Shown: piece by piece, positions 4,052 to 29,829 of the stretch
Position numbering within the stretch: the stretch's first letter is position 1
Layout of the letters: every line of letters begins with the position of its first letter
From: Candidatus Doudnabacteria bacterium
Lineage (GTDB): Bacteria > Patescibacteriota > Doudnabacteria > UBA920 > O2-02-FULL-48-8
Direction of reading: 5' to 3'
NCBI GenBank assembly: GCA_039931165.1
Contig: JBDTSL010000001.1
Coordinates: forward strand, 2,214 to 66,213
Length of the DNA: 64,000 bases
The notes under the pieces: generated by a model
The model's database searches: none
The model's input: the letters and a program-made list of their open reading frames with translations, nothing else
What the model was told of the DNA's origin: nothing
Translations under genes and position numbers: made by a program

Positions 4052-4888
4052 TTACCCGCCCGACTGAACGACGTCAGTCGTTCGGGCGGGATGGCTGGTT
4101 TCGTGAACCGGTGCCGTGGCCATTGTCAGATAAACCAGGGTTAGCATGGAGAACACCAAGGCCTGGATCAATCCCACAATCAACTCCAAAAAAATAAACG
4201 GCAGCGGCAAAAAATACGCGAACAATCCGGCCATAATGGTCAGCAGTACTTCGCCTGCGAAAATATTCCCGAACAGCCGGAACGACAAAGAAACCAGCTT
4301 TGCAACCTCCGAAATAATCTCCAGAAAACCCACGCCAAACTCGATGATCGCTGTCATGATGCTTACTGGGCCTTTGCCGAAAGACTTAAACAAATCTCCT
4401 AGTTTGATAAATTTGTTGGCGTACCGAAAAAATCCAATTACGGCCACTCCCATAATGTGCGAAACCAACACAGCGAACACTGCCATGGCCAAAGTCAGAT
4501 TAAGGTCGCTGTTGGCTGAGCGCAGCAGCGGCACCAGTTCGGTTTTACCCTCAACCATCAGATACCTGCCGATTGAGCCTGTGCCCGGTAGCAGGCCCAG
4601 ATAGTTTGAAAATAAAATAAACAGAAACATTCCGCCGATTACCGGCAGGACTTGCAAAGATTTTTGCCTGTTATGGGTCACCTGGTCGATGTAGCCTAGC
4701 ATAAACTCCAAGATACTTTCGGCAAAGTTCTGGAAGCCTTTTGGGATCAGATCCGTCTTTTTGCGCAAAATAAAGCCAACGATCAGGAATACTACAACCG
4801 CAATAGATGAGTTAATGTAAGCATTCGTCACCGGAAATTGACCAATATGTAATATTGACTCTGCGACTAGTGGAGGTATAGCGGTCAT
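4052..4888 (-). CDS. atpB: ATP synthase Fo subunit a
   Basis: 278 aa polytopic membrane protein with a conserved Arg-containing helix (LSFRLFGNIFAGE) and the ELIVGLIQALVFSMLT motif. The last ~15 codons run through a GC-rich nested palindrome at 4056-4092. Confidence 0.85.
   Translation of the reverse strand: MTAIPPLVAESILHIGQFPVTNAYINSSIAVVVFLIVGFILRKKTDLIPKGFQNFAESILEFMLGYIDQVTHNRQKSLQVLPVIGGMFLFILFSNYLGLLPGTGSIGRYLMVEGKTELVPLLRSANSDLNLTLAMAVFAVLVSHIMGVAVIGFFRYANKFIKLGDLFKSFGKGPVSIMTAIIEFGVGFLEIISEVAKLVSLSFRLFGNIFAGEVLLTIMAGLFAYFLPLPFIFLELIVGLIQALVFSMLTLVYLTMATAPVHETSHPARTTDVVQSGG
4056..4092. other. GC-rich nested palindrome (cccgcccg...gaacgac-gtca-gtcgttc-gggcggg) inside the last codons of atpB
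   Basis: Two nested stems of 7-8 bp read directly from the sequence. Confidence 0.5.
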
Positions 4889-7958: not shown

Positions 7959-9548
7959 CTATTTTCCCGCACGAATTCGCTTTCGGTCAAATTTTCTTCG
8001 GTAAATATAAAGCAGGAACAAAGCTCCGATTATTCCGACCGGAAAAATAATTTTCCATGGGGTGCTATGATCCGCGCTCAGCCCTGTACTTGGAAACGCA
8101 GGAACTTCTGTGGCCGGCAACGCAGGCGGCGCAACCACCACAGTAGCGAACGCAAGATCAGTGGCAGTTATGCCATTGGCCGTGCCGGAGGCTGTGGCAG
8201 TGTTCAGGGTCGTGGCAGTGAGATTTGAGATACAGGTAAAGCTCCAGCTCTCGGTCGGTTCGAGCAGATTGTTTTGATTGATATCTCCCGGGTGTCCTAC
8301 AACTCTACCGGGTAAGCCTGTGCATTTGTTATCAGTAACAGTTACATCACTTAAAGCCACGGTACCCGGGTTGGTGACGGTATATCTGTAAGTAACCGCT
8401 CCGCCGCCTGCCGGCAGTGTGAAAGGATAAGGGATCTTTACCACATGGATCAAAGGAGGAACGACGGCAGCGCCGACGACAACTGTTGCGGTGGCTGTGT
8501 CGGTAGAGCTTAGTCCCAGAGAGAATCCTGTGGCTGTGACGGTATTTGTATGAGTGGCGGCTAGGGTCGTGGCGCAGTTGTATATCCAGACTTCAGTCAG
8601 ATCCAGCGCGCCGTTGGCATTGGTATCGCCGGAGACAAAGTTTACCGGGCCACAGCTGTCATCGGTCACTCTGACAGTGGACATCGGGACAGTTCCGATG
8701 TTACGGACAGAGTAAGTGTAGGTCACGAGCCCGGGACCGCTGGGCAATGATAATGGGCTGGGTACTTTTAGGACATCGATCAGCGGTGGGACCGGGACCG
8801 GGCCTCCGGGGCCGGCGGGCGGTGTGCCTGATGAACATGAGTCAGAAATAGCATTAGTCTGCAACGTTACTTCACCAACCAAAGCTAAGGCGCGGCCAAT
8901 CAAACTTGCGCCGGTGGCTAATGTAATATCGCCAGAGTTTGTGATAATGGTTCCCTTGATCTGTGAGCCGGTACCGATGTTCATAGCTATCGGAACCTGC
9001 CAATATACATCGCAGGCGCTAGCTCCATTGGTTACCGCAACAGTAGTACCTCCGCTATCAGTGATACTGGACGTACTGCTGAAAATGTAGACGCCGGCGC
9101 CATCAAGAGTAATGGTGCCGCCGGTCATAACTCCCGCGGCTACATCATAAACTCCTGGGGTGATCGTTACATTCCCTGACAAAGTTTGGGCTGGTCCAGG
9201 CCCTTGAGCCGCAAGTTGCCCATACGCAGTAAGCGCATCGGCTTCGGGAGTATTCACTGTAGGAGCAACATCATATCCTGCCGCGATTCCCGGACCCGCT
9301 GTATCAGCGAATCCTACGTTCGAGCTATCAGACCCGACACGTCCCGAAAGTACCGATAAGCCTGTATTTGTCACCCCCGCTTTACCAAGAGCCGAATAGG
9401 CAGCAGACGCTCCGAGGGTTGGCGCTACGCCTGTAACGGCATAAACAGTAGTGCCTTTCATTACAAACATTCCAGCCACCAAGGTCACTAAAAGAAATCC
9501 AACAAATAACGTTTTATTGTATTTTTTTGTTGTTCGTTTTTTTATCAC
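7959..9548 (-). CDS. Sortase-substrate surface protein A: signal peptide + ice-binding-like (DUF3494-type) beta-helix + two DUF11 repeats + C-terminal sorting signal (LPATE/FPSTG, TM, RRKFDRKRIRAGK)
   Basis: The N-terminal region has Gly/Thr/Ser-rich beta-solenoid repeats. Its C-terminal 240 aa are near-identical to the paralog at 9568-11169. It ends in a hydrophobic helix plus a basic tail. Confidence 0.65.
   Translation of the reverse strand: MIKKRTTKKYNKTLFVGFLLVTLVAGMFVMKGTTVYAVTGVAPTLGASAAYSALGKAGVTNTGLSVLSGRVGSDSSNVGFADTAGPGIAAGYDVAPTVNTPEADALTAYGQLAAQGPGPAQTLSGNVTITPGVYDVAAGVMTGGTITLDGAGVYIFSSTSSITDSGGTTVAVTNGASACDVYWQVPIAMNIGTGSQIKGTIITNSGDITLATGASLIGRALALVGEVTLQTNAISDSCSSGTPPAGPGGPVPVPPLIDVLKVPSPLSLPSGPGLVTYTYSVRNIGTVPMSTVRVTDDSCGPVNFVSGDTNANGALDLTEVWIYNCATTLAATHTNTVTATGFSLGLSSTDTATATVVVGAAVVPPLIHVVKIPYPFTLPAGGGAVTYRYTVTNPGTVALSDVTVTDNKCTGLPGRVVGHPGDINQNNLLEPTESWSFTCISNLTATTLNTATASGTANGITATDLAFATVVVAPPALPATEVPAFPSTGLSADHSTPWKIIFPVGIIGALFLLYIYRRKFDRKRIRAGK
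8136..8832. repeat. About 700-bp near-identical segment shared with 9725-10421 (the DUF11-repeat halves of adhesins A and B), offset 1589 bp
   Basis: Long identical runs were read directly, for example ccaccacagtagcgaacgcaagatcagtggcagttatgccattggccgtgccggaggctgtggcagtg. There is one short divergent patch near 8715-8760 versus 10318-10360. Confidence 0.85.
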
Positions 9549-9567
9549 GAATCCCAGTTTTATTTTA

Positions 9568-11169
9568 TTAAAACGCTCGTTTTTTTCGGGCCACGTAGAA
9601 CAGCAATAAGGCCGCGATCATTCCCGCCGGAAGGATGACATTCCACAAAGTATTTCTTCCCGCTGGCGCATATCCGGTAGCTGCCAAACCGATGCCTGGA
9701 GGCGGAGTTGGTGTTGCCGGCGGCGCTACCACCACAGTAGCGAACGCAAGATCAGTGGCAGTTATGCCATTGGCCGTGCCGGAGGCTGTGGCAGTGTTCA
9801 GGGTCGTGGCAGTGAGATTTGAGATACAGGTAAAGCTCCAGCTCTCGGTCGGTTCGAGCAGATTGTTTTGATTGATATCTCCCGGGTGTCCTACAACTCT
9901 ACCGGGTAAGCCTGTGCATTTGTTATCAGTAACAGTTACATCACTTAAAGCCACGGTACCCGGGTTGGTGACGGTATATCTGTAAGTAACCGCTCCGCCG
10001 CCTGCCGGCAGTGTGAAAGGATAAGGGATCTTTACCACATGGATCAAAGGAGGAACGACGGCAGCGCCGACGACAACTGTTGCGGTGGCTGTGTCGGTAG
10101 AGCTTAGTCCCAGAGAGAATCCTGTGGCTGTGACGGTATTTGTATGAGTGGCGGCTAGGGTCGTGGCGCAGTTGTATATCCAGACTTCAGTCAGATCCAG
10201 CGCGCCGTTGGCATTGGTATCGCCGGAGACAAAGTTTACCGGGCCACAGCTGTCATCGGTCACTCTGACAGTGGACATCGGGACAGTTCCGATGTTACGG
10301 ACAGAGTAAGTGTAGGTCACAGATCCGGGACCACCAGGCAAAGACAAAGGGCTGGGTACTTTTAGGACATCGATCAGCGGTGGGACCGGGACCGGGCCGC
10401 CGGGGCCGGCGGGCGGTGTGCCTGCACATGTCACCGGTGTGGCTATATTGGTCGTATTCCCCGTTGTAACTACTCCGCCAAATGACAAGGCCCTTCCTGT
10501 CCAGTTTACGTTAGCACCAGTTGTAATGCCCGAATCATCAATAACTGTTCCTAACATAGTCGTATTGTCTGCGAGTGATGTTGCAGAAGTGGCAGTCCAA
10601 AAAACGTCACACGGAGATGCCCCGGCCACTTGCACAATCGCCCCTGCCGACGAGGTTAGGGCGCCAAAAATCCTGAATATATATGTTCCAGCTCCATTAA
10701 GCGTAATTGTGCCTGTTATCTGCGCAGCACTACCGGCTGTAGTGCAATAAATTCCGGGCAGATAAACTCCAATACCACCAGGGTGAAGGGCTTCAGTGCC
10801 CAGATTAACCGCTCCGGCTGGGAAAGTGTAATCGCAAGGCAATTGAGCATTCAAATTAACAAGTGCGCTGCCCTGATCTGTGCCTGCGGTAGAATATGGA
10901 GCACCCGAGCCGTAGCGCAGCTGTGTGCCTAGCGGGTGAACTGCCGGTCCTGTAGTAAATCCGATATCGCCGTTAACCGTGGTTCCGGCGAAGGTATTAA
11001 TGAAAGAACTGGCAAGAATGGCATATGATGTGGCCGCTCCAAGGTTCGGAGTTGTAGCCGCACGAGCCATAAGGCCATTCATCATAGAAATCCCGGCCAT
11101 AAGCAGAATAACCAACAGAGATATAACAATCCGGCCTTTGTATTTTTTTGCGTTTCGTTTTTTTATCAT
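9568..11169 (-). CDS. Sortase-substrate surface protein B: ice-binding-like (DUF3494) N-domain + two DUF11 repeats + LAATG sorting signal
   Basis: After the signal peptide the protein reads LGAATSYAILASSFINTFAGTTVNGDIGFTTGPAV, matching the DUF3494 family opening. The C-terminus is GIGLAATGYAPAGRNTLWNVILPAGMIAALLLFYVARKKRAF. LAXTG is the class-E sortase motif. Confidence 0.7.
   Translation of the reverse strand: MIKKRNAKKYKGRIVISLLVILLMAGISMMNGLMARAATTPNLGAATSYAILASSFINTFAGTTVNGDIGFTTGPAVHPLGTQLRYGSGAPYSTAGTDQGSALVNLNAQLPCDYTFPAGAVNLGTEALHPGGIGVYLPGIYCTTAGSAAQITGTITLNGAGTYIFRIFGALTSSAGAIVQVAGASPCDVFWTATSATSLADNTTMLGTVIDDSGITTGANVNWTGRALSFGGVVTTGNTTNIATPVTCAGTPPAGPGGPVPVPPLIDVLKVPSPLSLPGGPGSVTYTYSVRNIGTVPMSTVRVTDDSCGPVNFVSGDTNANGALDLTEVWIYNCATTLAATHTNTVTATGFSLGLSSTDTATATVVVGAAVVPPLIHVVKIPYPFTLPAGGGAVTYRYTVTNPGTVALSDVTVTDNKCTGLPGRVVGHPGDINQNNLLEPTESWSFTCISNLTATTLNTATASGTANGITATDLAFATVVVAPPATPTPPPGIGLAATGYAPAGRNTLWNVILPAGMIAALLLFYVARKKRAF
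9725..10421. repeat. Second copy of the ~700-bp intragenic repeat
   Basis: See the feature at 8136-8832. Confidence 0.85.
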
Positions 11170-11347
11170 AATCTTCCTGACTTTCGTTAGGCGGGTTAAT
11201 TATTTAGTTTATTTGTATTTCGAACCATGCGGTCTGTGAATCTAGCTTTTTTAGTGTCTTTTTTATGAAAATAGCTTCTGTACATATTATGATATGCTTT
11301 ATGGTAAATGTCAAAACTAACGCTGTGGATAACAGCTTATACCAAAA

Positions 11348-11374
11348 CCACCTGCTGATGCAGGTGGTTTTTTA
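11348..11374. terminator. Intrinsic terminator-like hairpin (ccacctgc-tgat-gcaggtgg) followed by T6
   Basis: Perfect 8-bp stem with a T-run on the plus strand and an A/T-rich run on the other side. Lies between adhesin genes B and C. Confidence 0.5.
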
Positions 11375-11383
11375 TGATTCGGT

Positions 11384-11490
11384 TTTTGCGAGCGACCGCT
11401 TTTGAAGCTTGAGATCTGGCGGGAGCGAATCAATCTCATCTTTAATTGAGATTGCTTCGTCGTCCCGATAAATCGGGACTTCTCGCAAAA
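11384..11490 (+). repeat. Family-1 structured intergenic element, copy a
   Basis: Outer inverted repeat TTTTGCGAG/CTCGCAAAA. Inside it, CGAATCAATCTCA pairs with TGAGATTGCTTCG, then a hairpin TCCCGAT-AAA-TCGGGA, then CTTCTCGCAAAA. Confidence 0.6.
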
Positions 11491-11502
11491 TTGAGAGAAA
11501 AT

Positions 11503-12645
11503 TTAAAGCGCTTTTTTTCTTCGGGCAATGTAGAGCAGGAACAAAACCGCGACTATGCCAATTGGCAGGATCACATTCCAGGGAGTCGCTTTTTGCGCCG
11601 GATTAAATCCTGTAGCTGCCAGCCCGAGGCCGGGTGGCGGAGTAACTGCTACTGGCACAGGAGTGACCACATTTGCCGTATTTACGATGGTGCAGCCGGT
11701 CGTAAGGCCTGCTACAACCGTGATCGAGCCGCAAGTGGATGAATTTTGAGTCCAGCCGGACGGCACTACTTCCGTGGCTGAATAAACTCCTGGGGTAAGA
11801 CCGCTTTGGGTATGTGATCCGGTTCCTGCCGAGGTTGAAATGCTGAAACTAGAGAAGCCGGCGCCGGTGGTGTTAAAGTTGAATGTGCCATTGCCTCCGA
11901 CCGCTGTTTTATTTACGGTAATTGATCCTGTGGCCGGAAGTCCAGAAGCGCATACCGGTGTGGTAATCGTATTGAGAGAGGTGGTGACGGTTCCGCCAAA
12001 TGCCAGGACTCTCCCTGTCCAAGTAGCGAGGTTGCCGAGTGTAATGCCCGAAGCATCGATGTCCCGGCCTACGAAGGCAGAGTTTGCTCCAAGCGTTGTG
12101 GCAGCGCCCGGGGTCCACCAGACATCACAAGAGGTCGCGCCATTGGAGGCCGTGACCACGGAATTGGCCACAGTGGTAAGCGCTCCGGTCATCCGGAAAA
12201 TGTATACGCCGGCGCCATTCAGAGTAATTCCGCCGGTTCCTACGTCAGCCGCGCCCAGAACGCAATATACTCCCGGTGTGTAAACGCCGACCGGACCGTG
12301 TGTGGTATCGGCAGCGAGGTCAATTGCCCCGGGTGCGAATGTAAACGTACACGGCTGGCTGTTCAGGGCAGACAAAGCCGCTCCCTGATCTATGCCGGCC
12401 TGGGCATAAGTAGCATCAGCCGTATGGGTGACGCCAGTGACTGTGGGCGCTACAGCAGGCCCGGTGGTATATCCCAGATCGCCGTTAATGACGGTCCCGA
12501 CCAAAGTGTTGGTATAGGAACCGGAAAGAACGGTAAAGCTGTTGGCCGTCCCAAGGCCCGGTGACGTTGCCGCGTTGGCTGTGACCCCAACCATAAGAAC
12601 AGCGGCCAATAAAATGATAGTGAACAGGATATTAATCTTTTTCAT
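11503..12645 (-). CDS. Sortase-substrate surface protein C: ice-binding-like (DUF3494) domain + Thr/Gly-rich Ig-like segment + LAATG sorting signal
   Basis: Reads LGTANSFTVLSGSYTNTLVGTVINGDLGYTTGPAV after the signal peptide. C-terminus is PGLGLAATGFNPAQKATPWNVILPIGIVAVLFLLYIARRKKAL. Confidence 0.7.
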   Translation of the reverse strand: MKKINILFTIILLAAVLMVGVTANAATSPGLGTANSFTVLSGSYTNTLVGTVINGDLGYTTGPAVAPTVTGVTHTADATYAQAGIDQGAALSALNSQPCTFTFAPGAIDLAADTTHGPVGVYTPGVYCVLGAADVGTGGITLNGAGVYIFRMTGALTTVANSVVTASNGATSCDVWWTPGAATTLGANSAFVGRDIDASGITLGNLATWTGRVLAFGGTVTTSLNTITTPVCASGLPATGSITVNKTAVGGNGTFNFNTTGAGFSSFSISTSAGTGSHTQSGLTPGVYSATEVVPSGWTQNSSTCGSITVVAGLTTGCTIVNTANVVTPVPVAVTPPPGLGLAATGFNPAQKATPWNVILPIGIVAVLFLLYIARRKKAL

Positions 12646-13063: not shown

Positions 13064-13408
13064 ATGCCAAACAAGACGGGTGCGAAAAAATCTCATAAGG
13101 GTTTAATGTGGGTTTCGGGAGCGGTGATAGGTGCCGCGCTTGGAGCAGGCGCTGTGGTCCTGGCCGAATCGAAGATGGGCAAAGACATGTGGAAGCAGGC
13201 GAAACAACAAAGCAAGGATTTCGCCAAATACTTGGCCCCCAAGGTGAAAAAAATCAAACAAATGGGCGAATCCCAATATAAAAAGATGGCCAGCGAGGCT
13301 ATGCAATCGTACAAAAAAAATAAAAATCTTTCCCGCGCTGAAGCAGACCATCTTTTGAAAGCAGCTCGGGCATCCTGGAAACACATGGTAAAAAAAGCAA
13401 AGGTCTAA
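13064..13408 (+). CDS. Hypothetical membrane-anchored Lys-rich protein (YtxH-like architecture)
   Basis: 114 aa with an N-terminal TM helix (GLMWVSGAVIGAALGAGAVVLA) then a K/A/Q-rich helical region. Followed by a terminator. Confidence 0.4.
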   Translation: MPNKTGAKKSHKGLMWVSGAVIGAALGAGAVVLAESKMGKDMWKQAKQQSKDFAKYLAPKVKKIKQMGESQYKKMASEAMQSYKKNKNLSRAEADHLLKAARASWKHMVKKAKV

Positions 13409-13428
13409 TCGTTTCAATTGCTACAAAA

Positions 13429-13455
13429 AGAACTCCTAACTAGGAGTTCTTTTTT
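13429..13455 (+). terminator. Rho-independent terminator (agaactcct-aact-aggagttct + T5)
   Basis: Perfect 9-bp stem followed by a T-run, directly after the stop of the 13064-13408 ORF. Confidence 0.7.
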
Positions 13456-13565
13456 AATTATTCAGGAATTTCATTGGAGCCCCCGGGTAGAATCTCCCGC
13501 CTTTGGCGGGATCCCGCCGTCCTTTAAAATTAATTTCGGTGGCGGGAGAACTCACATTATTTATC

Positions 13566-13623
13566 TGGAGCCGAAGGTCGGGATCGAACCGACGACCTCT
13601 GCTTTACCCCCCAACACCAAATT
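13566..13623 (-). ncRNA. tRNA 3-prime-half-like sequence (ATTTGGTGTTGGGGGGT, then anticodon-stem 3-prime strand, variable loop, T-arm, acceptor 3-prime strand, CCA)
   Basis: Minus-strand ATTTGGTGTTGGGGGGT-A-AAGCAG-AGGTC-GTCGG-TTCGATC-CCGAC-CTTCGGC-T-CCA. Joined to the 5-prime half at 13711-13766 it gives a near-complete tRNA-Thr(CGT)-like cloverleaf with one C-U acceptor mismatch. Confidence 0.35.
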
Positions 13624-13634
13624 AAAATGCCTAA

Positions 13635-13710
13635 TGGAGCCGACGGTCGGGCTTGAACCGACAACCTGCGGTTTACGATACCGCTGCTCTACCAGTTGAG
13701 CTACGTCGGC
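13635..13710 (-). tRNA. tRNA-Thr (anticodon CGT), CCA encoded
   Basis: Minus-strand sequence GCCGACG-TA-GCTC-AACTGGTA-GAGC-A-GCGGT-ATCGTAA-ACCGC-AGGTT-GTCGG-TTCAAGC-CCGAC-CGTCGGC-T-CCA. All four stems pair perfectly. Confidence 0.9.
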
Positions 13711-13766
13711 ATGATTTGGTGTGGGGGTTTACGAAAGCATTGCTCTACCAACTGAGCTACGCCGGC
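13711..13766 (-). ncRNA. tRNA 5-prime-half-like sequence (acceptor, D-arm, anticodon stem-loop with CGT) ending in ACCCCCACACCAAATCAT
   Basis: Minus-strand GCCGGCG-TA-GCTC-AGTTGGTA-GAGC-A-ATGCT-TTCGTAA, then a C-rich tail that is the reverse complement of the start of the 3-prime-half element at 13607-13623. Confidence 0.35.
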
Positions 13767-13787
13767 ATAAGACAAATTATACCACAG

Positions 13788-14966
13788 CTAATTAAATGAC
13801 TGGGAGTCAGTATTGAAGCCGCCGCCGGACGACATGCACCATCGGATATACTCGCTATTTTTCAGCTCCGCGCAATCCGCGCTGAGCTTTGCCGGATCAG
13901 TGGTCCAGCTTTTTATATTGCTGCCCAAATTCTTAAAGCAAGCCTCCTGAAAATTGCTGTTCAGCTGGGCGCAAAAATCTCCGATCTTATTTGTTTGGCC
14001 GACATAGCGTCCTGACAATCCGTCCACTACTCCCAATTGGCAAATTTGAACATAGTTCGCGCTTGGCATCAAACTGCAGGAATTTTCCATTTTCGCGTAA
14101 TCTTGGGTCGAGCCGACCTGATTGGTGCCGATGATATGAAAACATCCCTCCCTGTAAATTTCGGGAACCTTCATGCACAAATCTGCGTTCTTCTTCCAGT
14201 CATATTTGCTTAACTCGGCAAAATACGAACTTTGATACTGGTAGCAAATATTCAAATAGCGGGTTGCCAGAGCATCACAGGGATACATGGGATCGGATGC
14301 CTTCAGAAATTCGGTCGGATGAGCGGTATTGGTTGAGCTTGAAGAATTTTCCATAAAAACCCCGCCATAACAAATCGTTGGTTGATTGCCTTCCAGCTTG
14401 TCGCACAATGCCAACGACTTATTTAGATCCGTATCCGTGATAAACATCATAGCATGCCCTATGCCGTGGACGCATTCGGAATAAAACCTCGGGCTGGTAT
14501 AATCAGAAATTTTCCCGCATGCGGTTTGAAGCGCTTCCGTGATCTTGGGACTGTCCGGATCTGTCAGAGACAAGTGTTTGTCCCAAAAATACGATTCCAT
14601 GACGCCGTGATAAAACCCGCCCCAGCAAACCGGGTTGGCCCTGGAATATACTTTGGACACGCTCCCCTCCTGTTCATATGCCTTCCTGCCGATGTAATGG
14701 GTCAGTTCGTGACAGCGGCTGAATATTTCGGGATACTGTTCGTTGTCTTTCAAAAGCTGAAGAATTTTTACATAATCCCATTTCGCCATTAAAGTCCCTG
14801 CGACTTGCATGTAACAATTGTCGCTCAATTGCTTTTCCCCGCAGGGTCTCATCTGCGAGCGCAGAAACTGGGAATCGGAAATGGTTTGATTTGGATGCGA
14901 CAAAACAAAAAACATGCCTCCGGCAATAAGCAATATCCCGGTTATATAAATTAAATTCCTGTTCAT
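13788..14966 (-). CDS. Membrane-anchored cysteine-rich extracytoplasmic protein with HExxH motif (putative metallopeptidase-like; function unknown)
   Basis: N-terminal TM (LIYITGILLIAGGMFFVL), more than 20 Cys, CHELTHYIG (HExxH) and ECVHGIGHAMMF. Start placed at MNRNLIY (14966), which overlaps the NUDIX stop as ATGA. The track ORF extends to 15008. Confidence 0.45.
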   Translation of the reverse strand: MNRNLIYITGILLIAGGMFFVLSHPNQTISDSQFLRSQMRPCGEKQLSDNCYMQVAGTLMAKWDYVKILQLLKDNEQYPEIFSRCHELTHYIGRKAYEQEGSVSKVYSRANPVCWGGFYHGVMESYFWDKHLSLTDPDSPKITEALQTACGKISDYTSPRFYSECVHGIGHAMMFITDTDLNKSLALCDKLEGNQPTICYGGVFMENSSSSTNTAHPTEFLKASDPMYPCDALATRYLNICYQYQSSYFAELSKYDWKKNADLCMKVPEIYREGCFHIIGTNQVGSTQDYAKMENSCSLMPSANYVQICQLGVVDGLSGRYVGQTNKIGDFCAQLNSNFQEACFKNLGSNIKSWTTDPAKLSADCAELKNSEYIRWCMSSGGGFNTDSQSFN

Positions 14967-29467: not shown

Positions 29468-29519
29468 ACCCCCTCACCAAATCTTGGTACGAGGGGTTTA
29501 TCCCCCTCACCAAATCATC
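29468..29519 (+). repeat. Direct repeat of ACCCCCTCACCAAATC separated by its imperfect inverse (TTGGTACGAGGGGT), 3 nt upstream of the dacA start codon
   Basis: ACCCCCTCACCAAATC-TTGGTACGAGGGGT-TTAT-CCCCCTCACCAAATCATC. The same motif (CCCCCACACCAAATCAT and its inverse) flanks tRNA-Thr at 13607-13727. Confidence 0.7.
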
Positions 29520-29829
29520 TAAAGAGTTATCTATTCGTTTCATAAGTTGAACGAATGCTCTACGACGAAATTTAAGATTACGTTCCCTGATTCAAGCATC
29601 TTTTTCTGATTTATAGGCTTCATAATAAATAAGTTCAAATGGAATTCGTGATTTTGTTGAGAAAACTCTCCCTTCATTGTGTAATTTAAAGCGTTTTTTT
29701 AAATCTTTCGTGGAACCGACGTATTTTTGGCCGTCTTTTTTGCTTTTTAGTATATAAACATAAAACATGCGATTTGGTGCGGGGGTTTAGTTTCAAGCGT
29801 TAACAGGTTTGGTGTAATTTTAGCACACT

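What the first reader, a model, noticed from the sequence alone, without database searches (positions are those of the whole stretch)
13566..13766. Complete tRNA-Thr(CGT) nested between a tRNA 5-prime half and a tRNA 3-prime half whose inner flanks are mutually complementary
The minus strand reads 5-prime-half (GCCGGCG...anticodon loop TTCGTAA) + ACCCCCACACCAAATCAT + [full 76-nt tRNA-Thr CGT] + TTAGGCATTTTA + ATTTGGTGTTGGGGGGT + 3-prime-half (AAGCAG-AGGTC-GTCGG-TTCGATC-CCGAC-CTTCGGC-T-CCA). The two C-rich and G-rich flanks can form a ~14-bp helix, which would bring the halves together. After removal of the ~130-nt intervening segment at the canonical 37/38 anticodon-loop position, the halves assemble into a second near-perfect tRNA-Thr(CGT) cloverleaf. 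Four of five anticodon-stem pairs form, and the acceptor stem is 6/7 with one C-U mismatch. Three explanations are possible. It may be an intron-like insertion in a tRNA gene whose loop carries another tRNA gene. It may be a rearranged tandem duplication. Or it may be a palindromic repeat element inserted into, or captured around, a tRNA gene, because the same CCCCC(A/T)CACCAAATCAT motif recurs at 29468-29519. The ~130-nt insert is too short for a group I intron, so any RNA-level joining would need a different mechanism.
Basis: seen in the sequence. Interest (0 to 1): 0.7.

Follow-up and report, generated by a model that had tools for sequence, protein, structure and literature searches.

The report
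Palindromic mobile element carrying tRNA, inside tRNA
A 125-base palindromic mobile element carrying its own complete threonine tRNA gene has inserted into the anticodon loop of the resident threonine tRNA gene of a Candidatus Doudnabacteria genome; it is a DNA insertion, not an intron, and its arms belong to a widespread repeat family that normally brackets a small GIY-YIG nuclease gene.

Summary
On the minus strand, 13766-13566 holds a tRNA-Thr(CGT) split after position 39 by 125 nt. The insert is a 14-nt arm, CAT, a complete tRNA-Thr(CGT), 12 nt, the complementary arm, and a second GTAAA.

The intron reading is not supported. There is no group I/II or BHB signature. The insert has terminal inverted repeats and a target-site duplication. 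The closest relative (Logan contig L150, syntenic) carries the same tRNA uninterrupted: 69/73 identical to the outer halves and reading TTCGTAAAGCAG across the junction. The inner tRNA is only 59/73 identical to the outer, so this is not a tandem duplication.

The arms (CCCCCACACCAAAT / ATTTGGTGTGGGGG) belong to a widespread family:
- They directly abut an 84-aa GIY-YIG nuclease gene in the 8 loci of this subfamily I read. One is a pseudogene copy in this window at 29469-29785.
- They also occur as short hairpins flanked by TAAA on both sides.
- Several copies sit in frame inside TatD, PGK, trigger factor and pilin genes, much like Rickettsia palindromic elements.

Most likely the inner tRNA is the working gene, transcribed from the resident promoter, and the outer halves are dead. 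How the tRNA got between the arms is unresolved. I found no description of this family in the papers searched.

The parts
13776..13784 (-). Promoter-like extended -10 box, TGgTATAAT, ending about 10 nt upstream of G1 of the outer tRNA. It is the likely promoter for the whole nested unit.
   Evidence: Read directly. The relative L150 has TGaTATAAT at the equivalent place. The consensus scan did not call it because no -35 box matches. Function is inferred.
13728..13766 (-). Outer (resident) tRNA-Thr(CGT), positions 1-39: acceptor 5' strand, D arm, anticodon stem 5' strand, and loop TTCGTAA plus A39.
   Evidence: Positions 7-39 are identical to the uninterrupted tRNA of L150.
13603..13727 (-). 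The whole 125-nt insertion: a 120-nt element (arm, CAT, tRNA, 12 nt, arm) plus the duplicated GTAAA.
   Evidence: ARAGORN reports 'Intron Length: 125' and 'ctttc-Intron-gtaaa'. This segment is absent from the orthologous tRNA in L150.
13714..13727 (-). Left arm (terminal inverted repeat), CCCCCACACCAAAT.
   Evidence: It is identical to the left arm of the metagenomic hairpins and of the GIY-YIG units.
13635..13710 (-). Inner, complete tRNA-Thr(CGT) with encoded CCA. This is the cargo and probably the functional gene.
   Evidence: ARAGORN. Rfam RF00005 at 66.7 bits with all stems perfect.
13608..13622 (-). Right arm, ATTTGGTGT(T)GGGGG. It has one extra T relative to the family consensus.
13603..13607 (-). 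Second copy of GTAAA, a target-site duplication. The first copy is tRNA positions 35-39 at 13732-13728.
   Evidence: The intact tRNA in L150 has a single GTAAA.
13566..13602 (-). Outer tRNA-Thr(CGT), positions 40-76: anticodon stem 3' strand, variable loop, T arm, acceptor 3' strand, U73 and CCA.
   Evidence: Positions 40-66 are identical to L150.
13425..13454 (.). Perfect 14-bp hairpin with flanking A and T runs. It is the likely terminator of the tRNA transcription unit, about 110 nt beyond the outer CCA.
   Evidence: (I1).
29469..29785 (-). Second member of the family in the window. Order on the minus strand: left arm (29785-29772), GIY-YIG gene (ATG at 29768, in-frame TGA at 29594-29592, frame continuing to 29502), right arm (29515-29502), ATAAA, then a mini-hairpin with a degenerate left arm (29496-29483) and a right arm (29482-29469), then TAA-ATG of the next gene.
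   Evidence: The codon 59 stop replaces the Arg of the intact homologue in L090, which is 72% identical. Pfam PF01541.

Best explanation
The resident tRNA-Thr(CGT) gene was split at the DNA level by insertion of a 120-bp non-autonomous member of a palindromic mobile-element family. The family's 14-bp terminal inverted repeats (CCCCCACACCAAAT / ATTTGGTGTGGGGG) normally bracket an 84-aa GIY-YIG nuclease gene. In this copy the space between the arms holds a complete, different tRNA-Thr(CGT) gene.

The element entered at the TAAA formed by tRNA positions 36-39 and duplicated (G)TAAA.

Inferred working: the unit is transcribed from the resident tRNA promoter. RNase P and 3' processing release the inner tRNA, which takes over ACG decoding. 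The outer halves are inert remnants that are not rejoined. The insertion persists because the cargo complements the gene it destroyed.

Mobility probably depends, in trans, on the family's GIY-YIG nuclease. The only copy in this window is a pseudogene.

It is unresolved whether the tRNA was already between the arms when the element arrived, or was captured into an already inserted hairpin. I lean slightly towards arrival pre-loaded.
For: Shown:
1. The insert has inverted-repeat ends and a 5-nt direct repeat, GTAAA.
2. Empty site. The closest relative of the flanking gene (P0122, 67% aa identity, with the same NUDIX, 400-aa protein, tRNA gene order) has an uninterrupted tRNA-Thr(CGT) at that position. 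It is 69/73 identical to the outer halves and identical from position 7 to 66, including the A27.G43 mismatch. Rfam scores it at 56 bits.
3. The inner tRNA is only 59/73 identical to the outer and 58/73 to L150, with compensated anticodon-stem differences. It is therefore another lineage, not a local duplicate.
4. The same arms occur in 20 or more metagenomic hairpins with loops of roughly 0-290 nt. Every copy found through a left-hand TAAA also had TAAA on the right, which was not part of the query.
5. The arms abut the start and stop codons of the GIY-YIG gene in the window, L090, L127, L133, L134, L144, L146 and L148. In L133 I read only the right arm directly; the left one shows as PPHQI in the mis-called N-terminus of P0007. 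L144 shows a TTGA/TTGA duplication.
6. Mis-called N- and C-terminal extensions of further homologues translate the arms.
7. The ORFs are 64-72% identical at the nucleotide level, but the arm cores are nearly invariant.
8. Family members sit in frame inside TatD, PGK, trigger factor, pilin and GT9 genes, with lengths of 33, 33, 33, 33, 69 and 78 nt including the duplication.
9. No intron family is detected.

Inferred: expression from the upstream TGgTATAAT, processing of the transcript, loss of outer function, and the role of the nuclease.
Against: - The outer halves show no decay in positions 7-66 relative to the L150 orthologue. This fits a recent insertion, but it also fits continued selection on the outer tRNA.
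- No second example of a tRNA between these arms was found. None of the other cargos resembles a tRNA.
- Landing in the very gene the cargo can replace is improbable for random insertion, and nothing shown here accounts for it.
- TAAA flanks are not seen around most GIY-YIG copies found through the protein (L127, L134, L146, L148). The 4-bp duplication rule therefore rests mainly on copies selected with a left-hand TAAA, on L144, and on the tRNA itself.
- Nothing shows that the 84-aa nuclease moves the element.
- Only 64 kb of the genome was visible, so other tRNA-Thr genes are unknown.
Confidence: 0.75

Rival explanations
1. In-situ capture. A plain hairpin element first split the tRNA-Thr(CGT) gene. 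Later a break in the palindrome loop was repaired with foreign or paralogous DNA containing a tRNA-Thr(CGT) gene, and selection for restored ACG decoding fixed that event. This is a variant of the best explanation that differs only in the order of events.
For: - Loops of family members hold unrelated sequences of very different lengths, as if loops accept filler DNA.
- Some loops contain relics of further arm-TAAA-arm junctions, and tandem or nested copies occur.
- This order explains why the cargo matches the disrupted gene without requiring a lucky landing.
Against: - The cargo is trimmed almost exactly to the tRNA, with 3 nt and 12 nt of flank, which is a lot to ask of random capture.
- No loop-capture mechanism is demonstrated.
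- No intermediate, meaning a tRNA split by an empty hairpin, was found in any locus.
Confidence: 0.3
2. Functional nested gene, an RNA-level 'intron'. The 14-bp helix brings the halves together. The hairpin plus inner tRNA is cut out of the precursor, for example by RNase P and RNase Z or by a helix-specific nuclease. An RNA ligase such as RtcB then rejoins the outer halves, so that one transcript yields two tRNA-Thr(CGT).
For: - After removal of the 125 nt the outer halves form a near-perfect cloverleaf with all universal bases.
- Positions 7-66 are undecayed relative to the orthologue.
- The fold places the inner cloverleaf on a 14-bp helix.
- Patescibacteria are known to tolerate introns in tRNA anticodon loops (PMC13011429).
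Against: - There is no group I/II core.
- There is no bulge-helix-bulge geometry. An asymmetric 8-nt/4-nt internal loop separates the anticodon stem from the helix.
- From general knowledge, no bacterial pathway is known that ligates tRNA halves after RNase P/Z-type cuts.
- Hairpins of the same family inside ORFs all have lengths that are multiples of three, so they are kept in the mRNA.
- The ends look like a DNA transposition product, with inverted repeats and a duplication.
- A complete spare tRNA in the loop removes any need for splicing.
Confidence: 0.04
3. Local rearrangement. A tandem pair of tRNA-Thr genes was rearranged or partly duplicated, and the complementary flanks arose by chance.
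For: Two tRNA-Thr(CGT) sequences lie within 200 nt, and tandem tRNA paralogues are common in bacteria (general knowledge).
Against: - The two tRNAs are 59/73 identical and have different, individually compensated anticodon stems.
- The flanks are exact members of a repeat family found in many unrelated contigs.
- The junctions carry a clean GTAAA duplication.
- The relative has a single uninterrupted gene.
Confidence: 0.02

Closest known systems
Miniature inverted-repeat transposable elements (MITEs) of bacteria, e.g. Neisseria Correia elements and pneumococcal RUP
   Same: It is small and non-coding for a transposase. It has terminal inverted repeats that can form a hairpin, a short A/T-rich target duplication, and many dispersed copies. 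Longer relatives share the same ends.
   Different: - The longer relatives carry only an 84-aa single-domain GIY-YIG nuclease, not a DDE transposase.
- This copy carries a complete tRNA gene as cargo.
- The arms are only 14 bp and directly abut the cargo.
Rickettsia palindromic elements (RPEs; PMC1779305)
   Same: These are palindromic repeats found both between genes and in frame inside conserved protein genes, tolerated as extra peptide segments. The family here does the same in TatD, PGK, trigger factor and pilin genes.
   Different: - RPEs are 100-150 bp with no associated gene. Here the minimal unit is 29 bp plus a 4-bp duplication, and full copies hold a GIY-YIG gene.
- The hosts are Patescibacteria and other uncultivated phyla.
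- No sequence relationship was tested or is claimed.
REP/BIME repeats with their RAYT gene (REPtrons)
   Same: A small nuclease-type gene is flanked in inverted orientation by the same short repeat that is scattered through genomes as hairpins. The arrangement suggests the gene product acts on the repeats.
   Different: - RAYTs are HUH/Y1 transposase relatives and each REP is itself a hairpin.
- Here the enzyme has a GIY-YIG fold, and each flank is half of one hairpin that closes over the gene.
Free-standing GIY-YIG homing endonuclease genes (T4 Seg proteins, including SegB in the tRNA gene cluster; from my own knowledge)
   Same: A GIY-YIG catalytic domain (Pfam PF01541), mobile-looking gene units between host genes, and an association with tRNA genes. 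L009 shows a related GIY-YIG gene next to a partly duplicated tRNA-Trp.
   Different: - Seg and I-TevI enzymes are 200 aa or more, with a DNA-binding domain, and have no inverted-repeat borders or target duplication.
- The protein here is 84 aa and resembles UPF0213 proteins (PDB 1zg2 and 1ywl).
Group I introns in tRNA anticodon loops of Patescibacteria (PMC13011429)
   Same: The same phylum and the same kind of site, an interrupted anticodon loop. Both are missed by standard tRNA annotation.
   Different: - Those introns average 257 nt, have a ribozyme core, and self-splice.
- This insert is 125 nt, has no ribozyme match, has transposon-like ends, and contains a tRNA.
Integrative elements that target tRNA genes and carry a replacement segment
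   Same: The inserted DNA compensates for damage done to a tRNA gene.
   Different: - Those elements are kilobases long, use integrases, and restore only the displaced part of the same gene.
- Here a whole second tRNA gene is supplied, and the resident one stays split.

Membership tests
Group I intron | Conserved ribozyme core (P3-P9), detectable with the Rfam Intron_gpI model | tested here: not met
   There was no hit at the gathering threshold over the whole window. There was also none at E<=10 over 13350-13850.
Group I intron | Length sufficient for the core (about 200 nt or more; tRNA introns average 257 nt in PMC13011429) | tested here: not met
   The insert is 125 nt, of which 76 nt form a tRNA cloverleaf.
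Archaeal/eukaryal BHB tRNA intron | Bulge-helix-bulge motif (two 3-nt bulges around a 4-bp helix) at the exon-intron junctions | tested here: not met
   The junctions lie in an asymmetric 8-nt/4-nt internal loop next to a 14-bp helix.
Archaeal/eukaryal BHB tRNA intron | A splicing endonuclease (EndA) and a ligase encoded in the genome | not testable with these tools
   Only 64 kb of a contig of at least 160 kb was available.
MITE-like palindromic mobile element | Terminal inverted repeats | tested here: met
   The arms are 13/14 complementary and identical to the family consensus.
MITE-like palindromic mobile element | Target-site duplication, and an empty site in a relative | tested here: met
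   GTAAA is present at both junctions. L150 has the uninterrupted tRNA with a single GTAAA.
MITE-like palindromic mobile element | Multiple dispersed copies in different contexts | tested here: met
   There are three arm pairs in the window. There are 20 or more elements in unrelated metagenome contigs, both intergenic and in ORFs.
MITE-like palindromic mobile element | A longer relative with the same ends that encodes the mobilising enzyme | tested here: inconclusive
   Longer copies with the same ends exist and carry a GIY-YIG gene. That this protein mobilises the element is untested.
Rickettsia palindromic elements | In-frame presence inside conserved protein genes | tested here: met
   This holds for the family, not for this copy. 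Pfam TatD and PGK matches run across the inserts, and the lengths are multiples of three.
Rickettsia palindromic elements | Sequence homology to the RPE families | not tested
   No RPE models were available, and no relationship is claimed.
tRNA (inner gene) | Covariance-model score above the Rfam threshold, with a canonical cloverleaf | tested here: met
   It scores 66.7 bits against a threshold of 29. ARAGORN calls it Thr(cgt).
tRNA (outer gene after removal of the insert) | Cloverleaf and universal bases once the halves are joined | tested here: met
   ARAGORN accepts it. The uninterrupted orthologue, which is 69/73 identical, scores 56 bits in Rfam. The joined sequence itself could not be given to Rfam.
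Homing GIY-YIG endonuclease (I-TevI/Seg type) | GIY-YIG catalytic domain | tested here: met
   PF01541, E = 2e-18.
Homing GIY-YIG endonuclease (I-TevI/Seg type) | A C-terminal DNA-binding domain, and cleavage of the element-free allele | tested here: not met
   The protein is 84 aa with a single domain. It matches TIGR01453 only weakly, over residues 4-39 and below the cut-off. Cleavage cannot be tested here.
Tandem tRNA duplication | Adjacent copies related by recent local duplication | tested here: not met
   The arrangement is nested rather than tandem, and the two copies are 59/73 identical.

The most novel reading that the evidence does not exclude
The hairpin-plus-tRNA segment is removed from the precursor RNA and the outer halves are rejoined by a protein pathway. 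One transcript would then give two tRNA-Thr(CGT) molecules. This would be a bacterial tRNA intron of neither group I nor group II type, and one that itself hosts a tRNA. The only positive hints are the undecayed outer halves (identical to the orthologue over positions 7-66) and the helix that juxtaposes the halves.
Probability: 0.04. Interest if true: 0.9.

Novelty: new variant of a known kind. Interest (0 to 1): 0.6.

Why it matters
1. It settles a structure that looks like a split or intron-containing bacterial tRNA. It is a DNA insertion, and the proof includes an empty site in a relative.

2. It exposes a repeat family for which I found no description in the papers searched. The family is an 84-aa GIY-YIG nuclease gene closed by invariant 14-bp inverted repeats, with short hairpin derivatives. 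These derivatives invade intergenic DNA, conserved protein genes (in frame) and, here, a tRNA gene. The hosts are Patescibacteria and other uncultivated bacteria. If the nuclease moves the repeats, this would be a mobile-element type built on a GIY-YIG enzyme.

3. An element that carries a working copy of the gene it disrupts shows how a selfish insertion into a translation gene can be made harmless.

4. There are practical consequences for annotation. tRNA finders report only the inner gene. Gene callers extend the GIY-YIG ORF through the arms. The in-frame hairpins add about 11-26 spurious-looking residues to housekeeping proteins of candidate-phyla genomes.

Tried and rejected
Approaches that gave nothing useful:
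- The orthologous locus through species-representative genomes. The best relative was only 48% identical and had no synteny or neighbouring tRNA-Thr.
- Exact-protein look-ups of the flanking genes found nothing. The NUDIX neighbour gave only a 2.2-kb contig that stops short of the tRNA.
- P0125, a 51% relative, is not syntenic.
- Viral contigs. Three chance-like single-arm matches and no arm pairs at 1-30 or 75-105 nt spacing. The family therefore looks cellular rather than viral.
- Rfam at permissive thresholds gave only noise apart from the tRNA.
- Literature searches for the arm sequence, for GIY-YIG with inverted repeats, palindromes or CPR, and for MITEs in tRNA anticodon loops found no description of this family.

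Ideas tested and dropped:
- ARAGORN in intron mode on the native sequence reported only the inner tRNA. The outer gene appeared only after the inner one was masked.
- The other loop cargos are not degraded tRNAs (all p>0.2), and they are not remnants of the GIY-YIG ORF.
- The inner tRNA is not shown to be a retro-copied mature tRNA. All tRNAs in the window encode CCA, so its encoded CCA is not informative.
- The 110 nt downstream of the outer tRNA has no other copy in the data and no significant fold (z = -1.5).

Full report
OBSERVATION

Outer tRNA positions 1-39 end in the anticodon loop, TTCGTAA plus A. Then come CCCCCACACCAAAT, CAT, and a complete tRNA-Thr(CGT) at 13710-13635 (ARAGORN; Rfam 66.7 bits). 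After it come TTAGGCATTTTA, ATTTGGTGTTGGGGG and GTAAA, and then outer positions 40-76 with CCA. The two flanks are 13/14 complementary.

When the inner tRNA is shuffled, ARAGORN calls the outer halves a tRNA-Thr(cgt) with a 125-nt intron. Every in-register splice variant is accepted as Thr(cgt). As RNA, the region is predicted to fold into the inner cloverleaf closed by the 14-bp helix (z = -4.2). The 'intron' is therefore a 120-nt unit with inverted-repeat ends plus a 5-nt direct repeat, which is the anatomy of a transposition product.

THE HOST

The flanking 392-aa protein is 100% identical to an NCBI protein from a Candidatus Doudnabacteria MAG. Its more distant relatives are almost all Patescibacteria.

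THE EMPTY SITE

The closest relative of that protein is P0122, at 67% identity. It lies on Logan contig L150 with the same gene order: NUDIX, the 400-aa protein, then the tRNA. Directly downstream is an uninterrupted tRNA-Thr(CGT) (Rfam 56 bits) that reads TTCGTAAAGCAG across the insertion point.

This tRNA is 69/73 identical to the joined outer halves. It is identical from position 7 to 66, including the A27.G43 mismatch. It is only 58/73 identical to the inner tRNA. Three things follow. The outer halves are the resident gene. The 125 nt are an insertion. The inner tRNA (59/73 to the outer, with a different but fully compensated anticodon stem) is a different lineage, not a local duplicate. 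This rejects the tandem-duplication reading.

WHAT THE FLANKS ARE

The same arms occur at 29469-29785 in the window. There they enclose a GIY-YIG gene whose ATG follows the left arm by 3 nt. Its reading frame runs into the right arm, and a mini-hairpin of the same arms follows. That gene has a TGA where the intact homologue in L090 (72% identity) has Arg, so it is a pseudogene.

One metagenome scan with TAAA plus the left arm returned 42 loci. About 20 are true arm pairs, with loops from roughly 0 to 290 nt. Every one of them also had TAAA after the right arm, which was not part of the query.

Starting instead from the protein (621 homologues at E<1e-10, mostly 84 aa, in several phyla), the arms turned up in each locus of this subfamily that I read. 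They directly abut the start and stop codons in L127, L134, L144, L146 and L148. In L133 I read only the right arm; the left one shows as PPHQI in the mis-called N-terminus of P0007. L144 has a TTGA/TTGA duplication. A more distant GIY-YIG gene in L146 has no arms.

Homologues mis-called with N- or C-terminal extensions translate the arms: PPHQI-M, PHTN-M, TPTPI-M, and ...FGVGV. The ORFs are 64-72% identical at the nucleotide level, while the arm cores are nearly invariant. The arms are therefore under selection as part of the unit. The protein is a bare GIY-YIG domain resembling UPF0213 proteins.

BEHAVIOUR OF THE FAMILY

Short members sit inside conserved protein genes in frame:
- TatD (AEG[VYPHTKRFGVG]VYATVGLHP).
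- Phosphoglycerate kinase.
- Trigger factor.
- A type IV pilin, exactly at the G|FTLVELL site, with FT duplicated.
- A GT9 glycosyltransferase.
- A membrane protein.

Pfam domain matches run across the inserts. Including the 4-bp duplication, these six inserts are 33, 33, 33, 33, 69 and 78 nt long, all multiples of three. This means the hairpins stay in the mRNA and are translated, as Rickettsia palindromic elements are (PMC1779305). It argues against any built-in RNA-level excision in the family.

The other cargos are not tRNA-like and are not remnants of the nuclease ORF. Some contain relics of further arm-TAAA-arm junctions, which suggests nested insertion. The family was absent from viral contigs.

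WHY IT IS NOT AN INTRON

There is no group I/II match, even at E<=10. The insert is half the size of the Patescibacteria tRNA group I introns (PMC13011429). The junctions lie in an 8/4 asymmetric loop rather than a bulge-helix-bulge motif. The ends carry inverted repeats and a duplication.

One fact keeps a small probability alive for a functional outer tRNA: the outer halves have not decayed relative to the orthologue. A recent insertion explains that equally well.

MECHANISM

Shown: a family member inserted into the TAAA of anticodon-loop positions 36-39 and duplicated (G)TAAA.

Inferred:
- Transcription starts from the resident extended -10 box, TGgTATAAT at 13784-13776. The box is conserved as TGaTATAAT in L150.
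- Transcription ends at the hairpin at 13425-13454.
- The inner tRNA is released by ordinary 5' and 3' processing.
- The outer halves are inert.
- The insertion is tolerated because the cargo replaces the lost function.
- U36-A37-A38-A39 makes TAAA a natural feature of many ANN-decoding tRNAs (general knowledge of tRNA sequence conventions), which may predispose such genes to be hit.

Not explained: how a tRNA came to replace the nuclease gene between the arms, and why the cargo matches the target. The two orders of events, pre-loaded arrival and capture into an inserted hairpin, cannot be separated with the data available. It is also untested whether the 84-aa nuclease drives mobility.

COMPARISON AND NOVELTY

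The element works like a MITE or RPE-type palindromic element. The gene-between-its-own-repeats layout recalls REP/RAYT. It is not a member of any intron class. I found no description of a GIY-YIG gene bracketed by these repeats, or of a tRNA nested in a tRNA through such an element. The library does not hold most subscription-journal papers. I rate it a new variant of a known kind, with interest 0.6.

LIMITS

- There is only one empty-site comparison, and it is at 67% protein identity.
- No expression data exist.
- Only 64 kb of the genome was visible.

Noticed in passing
window 29469-29785 (minus strand): A GIY-YIG gene unit bounded by the same arms as the tRNA insert. The gene has an in-frame TGA at codon 59 where the homologue has Arg. 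A mini-hairpin of the same arms follows, and then TAA-ATG of a D-Ala-D-Ala carboxypeptidase-like gene.
   Followed up: yes
L124 1836-1864; L101 3735-3765; L091 4835-4908; L089 812-876; L085 260-288; L119 661-689: Hairpins of the family lie in frame inside TatD, PGK, trigger factor, type IV pilin, GT9 and a membrane-protein gene. They add 11-26 residues, for example VYPHTKRFGVG. All the lengths are multiples of three.
   Followed up: yes
L009 2360-2775 (Saccharimonadales MAG DATIJK010000085): A more distant GIY-YIG gene (45% identity) sits between a 40-nt exact duplicate of the tRNA-Trp(CCA) 5' half and the complete tRNA-Trp. The duplicate ends in the anticodon loop and is followed by a perfect 22-nt palindrome. 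This is a second link between small GIY-YIG genes and interrupted or duplicated tRNA genes.
   Followed up: partly
window 13482-13558 (minus strand): A 77-nt segment containing CTCCCGCC/GGCGGGAG palindromes lies just 3' of the outer tRNA. It sits between two similar GGCTCCA-(G/A)AT(A/G)AAAT repeats, so a third 'GGCTCCA' end follows the two tRNA ends. It could be the scar of another insertion. It has no other copy in the data and no significant fold.
   Followed up: partly
L150 2272-2344, and window outer tRNA: The uninterrupted orthologous tRNA has two non-canonical acceptor-stem pairs (A4.C69, G6.A67). The outer tRNA has C6.U67 and G5.U68. All four differences between the two genes are in the acceptor stem, while positions 7-66 are identical. 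This could mean relaxed or unusual constraints on this tRNA-Thr(CGT) lineage.
   Followed up: no
L150 2236-2274: Upstream of the intact tRNA, the sequence CCCCC-(14 nt)-CACCA-(5 nt)-TCATGCC loosely resembles the left arm plus CAT plus GCC that precedes the inner tRNA in the window. The resemblance is weak and may be chance.
   Followed up: no
L122 and L123 (the same contig in both orientations): 2374-2474, 4338-4437 and 5313-5411 in L123: Three roughly 100-nt members of the family lie in intergenic gaps of one 6-kb Patescibacteria-like contig. Their internal sequences are related but diverged, and not all have TAAA flanks.
   Followed up: partly
L133 111-416: ARAGORN calls a tRNA-Asn(GTT) with a 231-nt intron. 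This looks like the published Patescibacteria group I type. It lies on the same contig as a GIY-YIG unit with arms.
   Followed up: no
window 7959-12645 (minus strand): Three tandem paralogous secreted or surface proteins. The first two share long stretches of identical C-terminal sequence, which suggests recent duplication or gene conversion.
   Followed up: no
P0025, P0104 and P0070 (GIY-YIG homologues with C-terminal extensions): The translated extensions read right arm, left arm, right arm (for example DFGVG-STPTSKS-FGVGV). The layout seen in the window, a nuclease unit followed by a mini-hairpin, therefore recurs in other genomes.
   Followed up: partly
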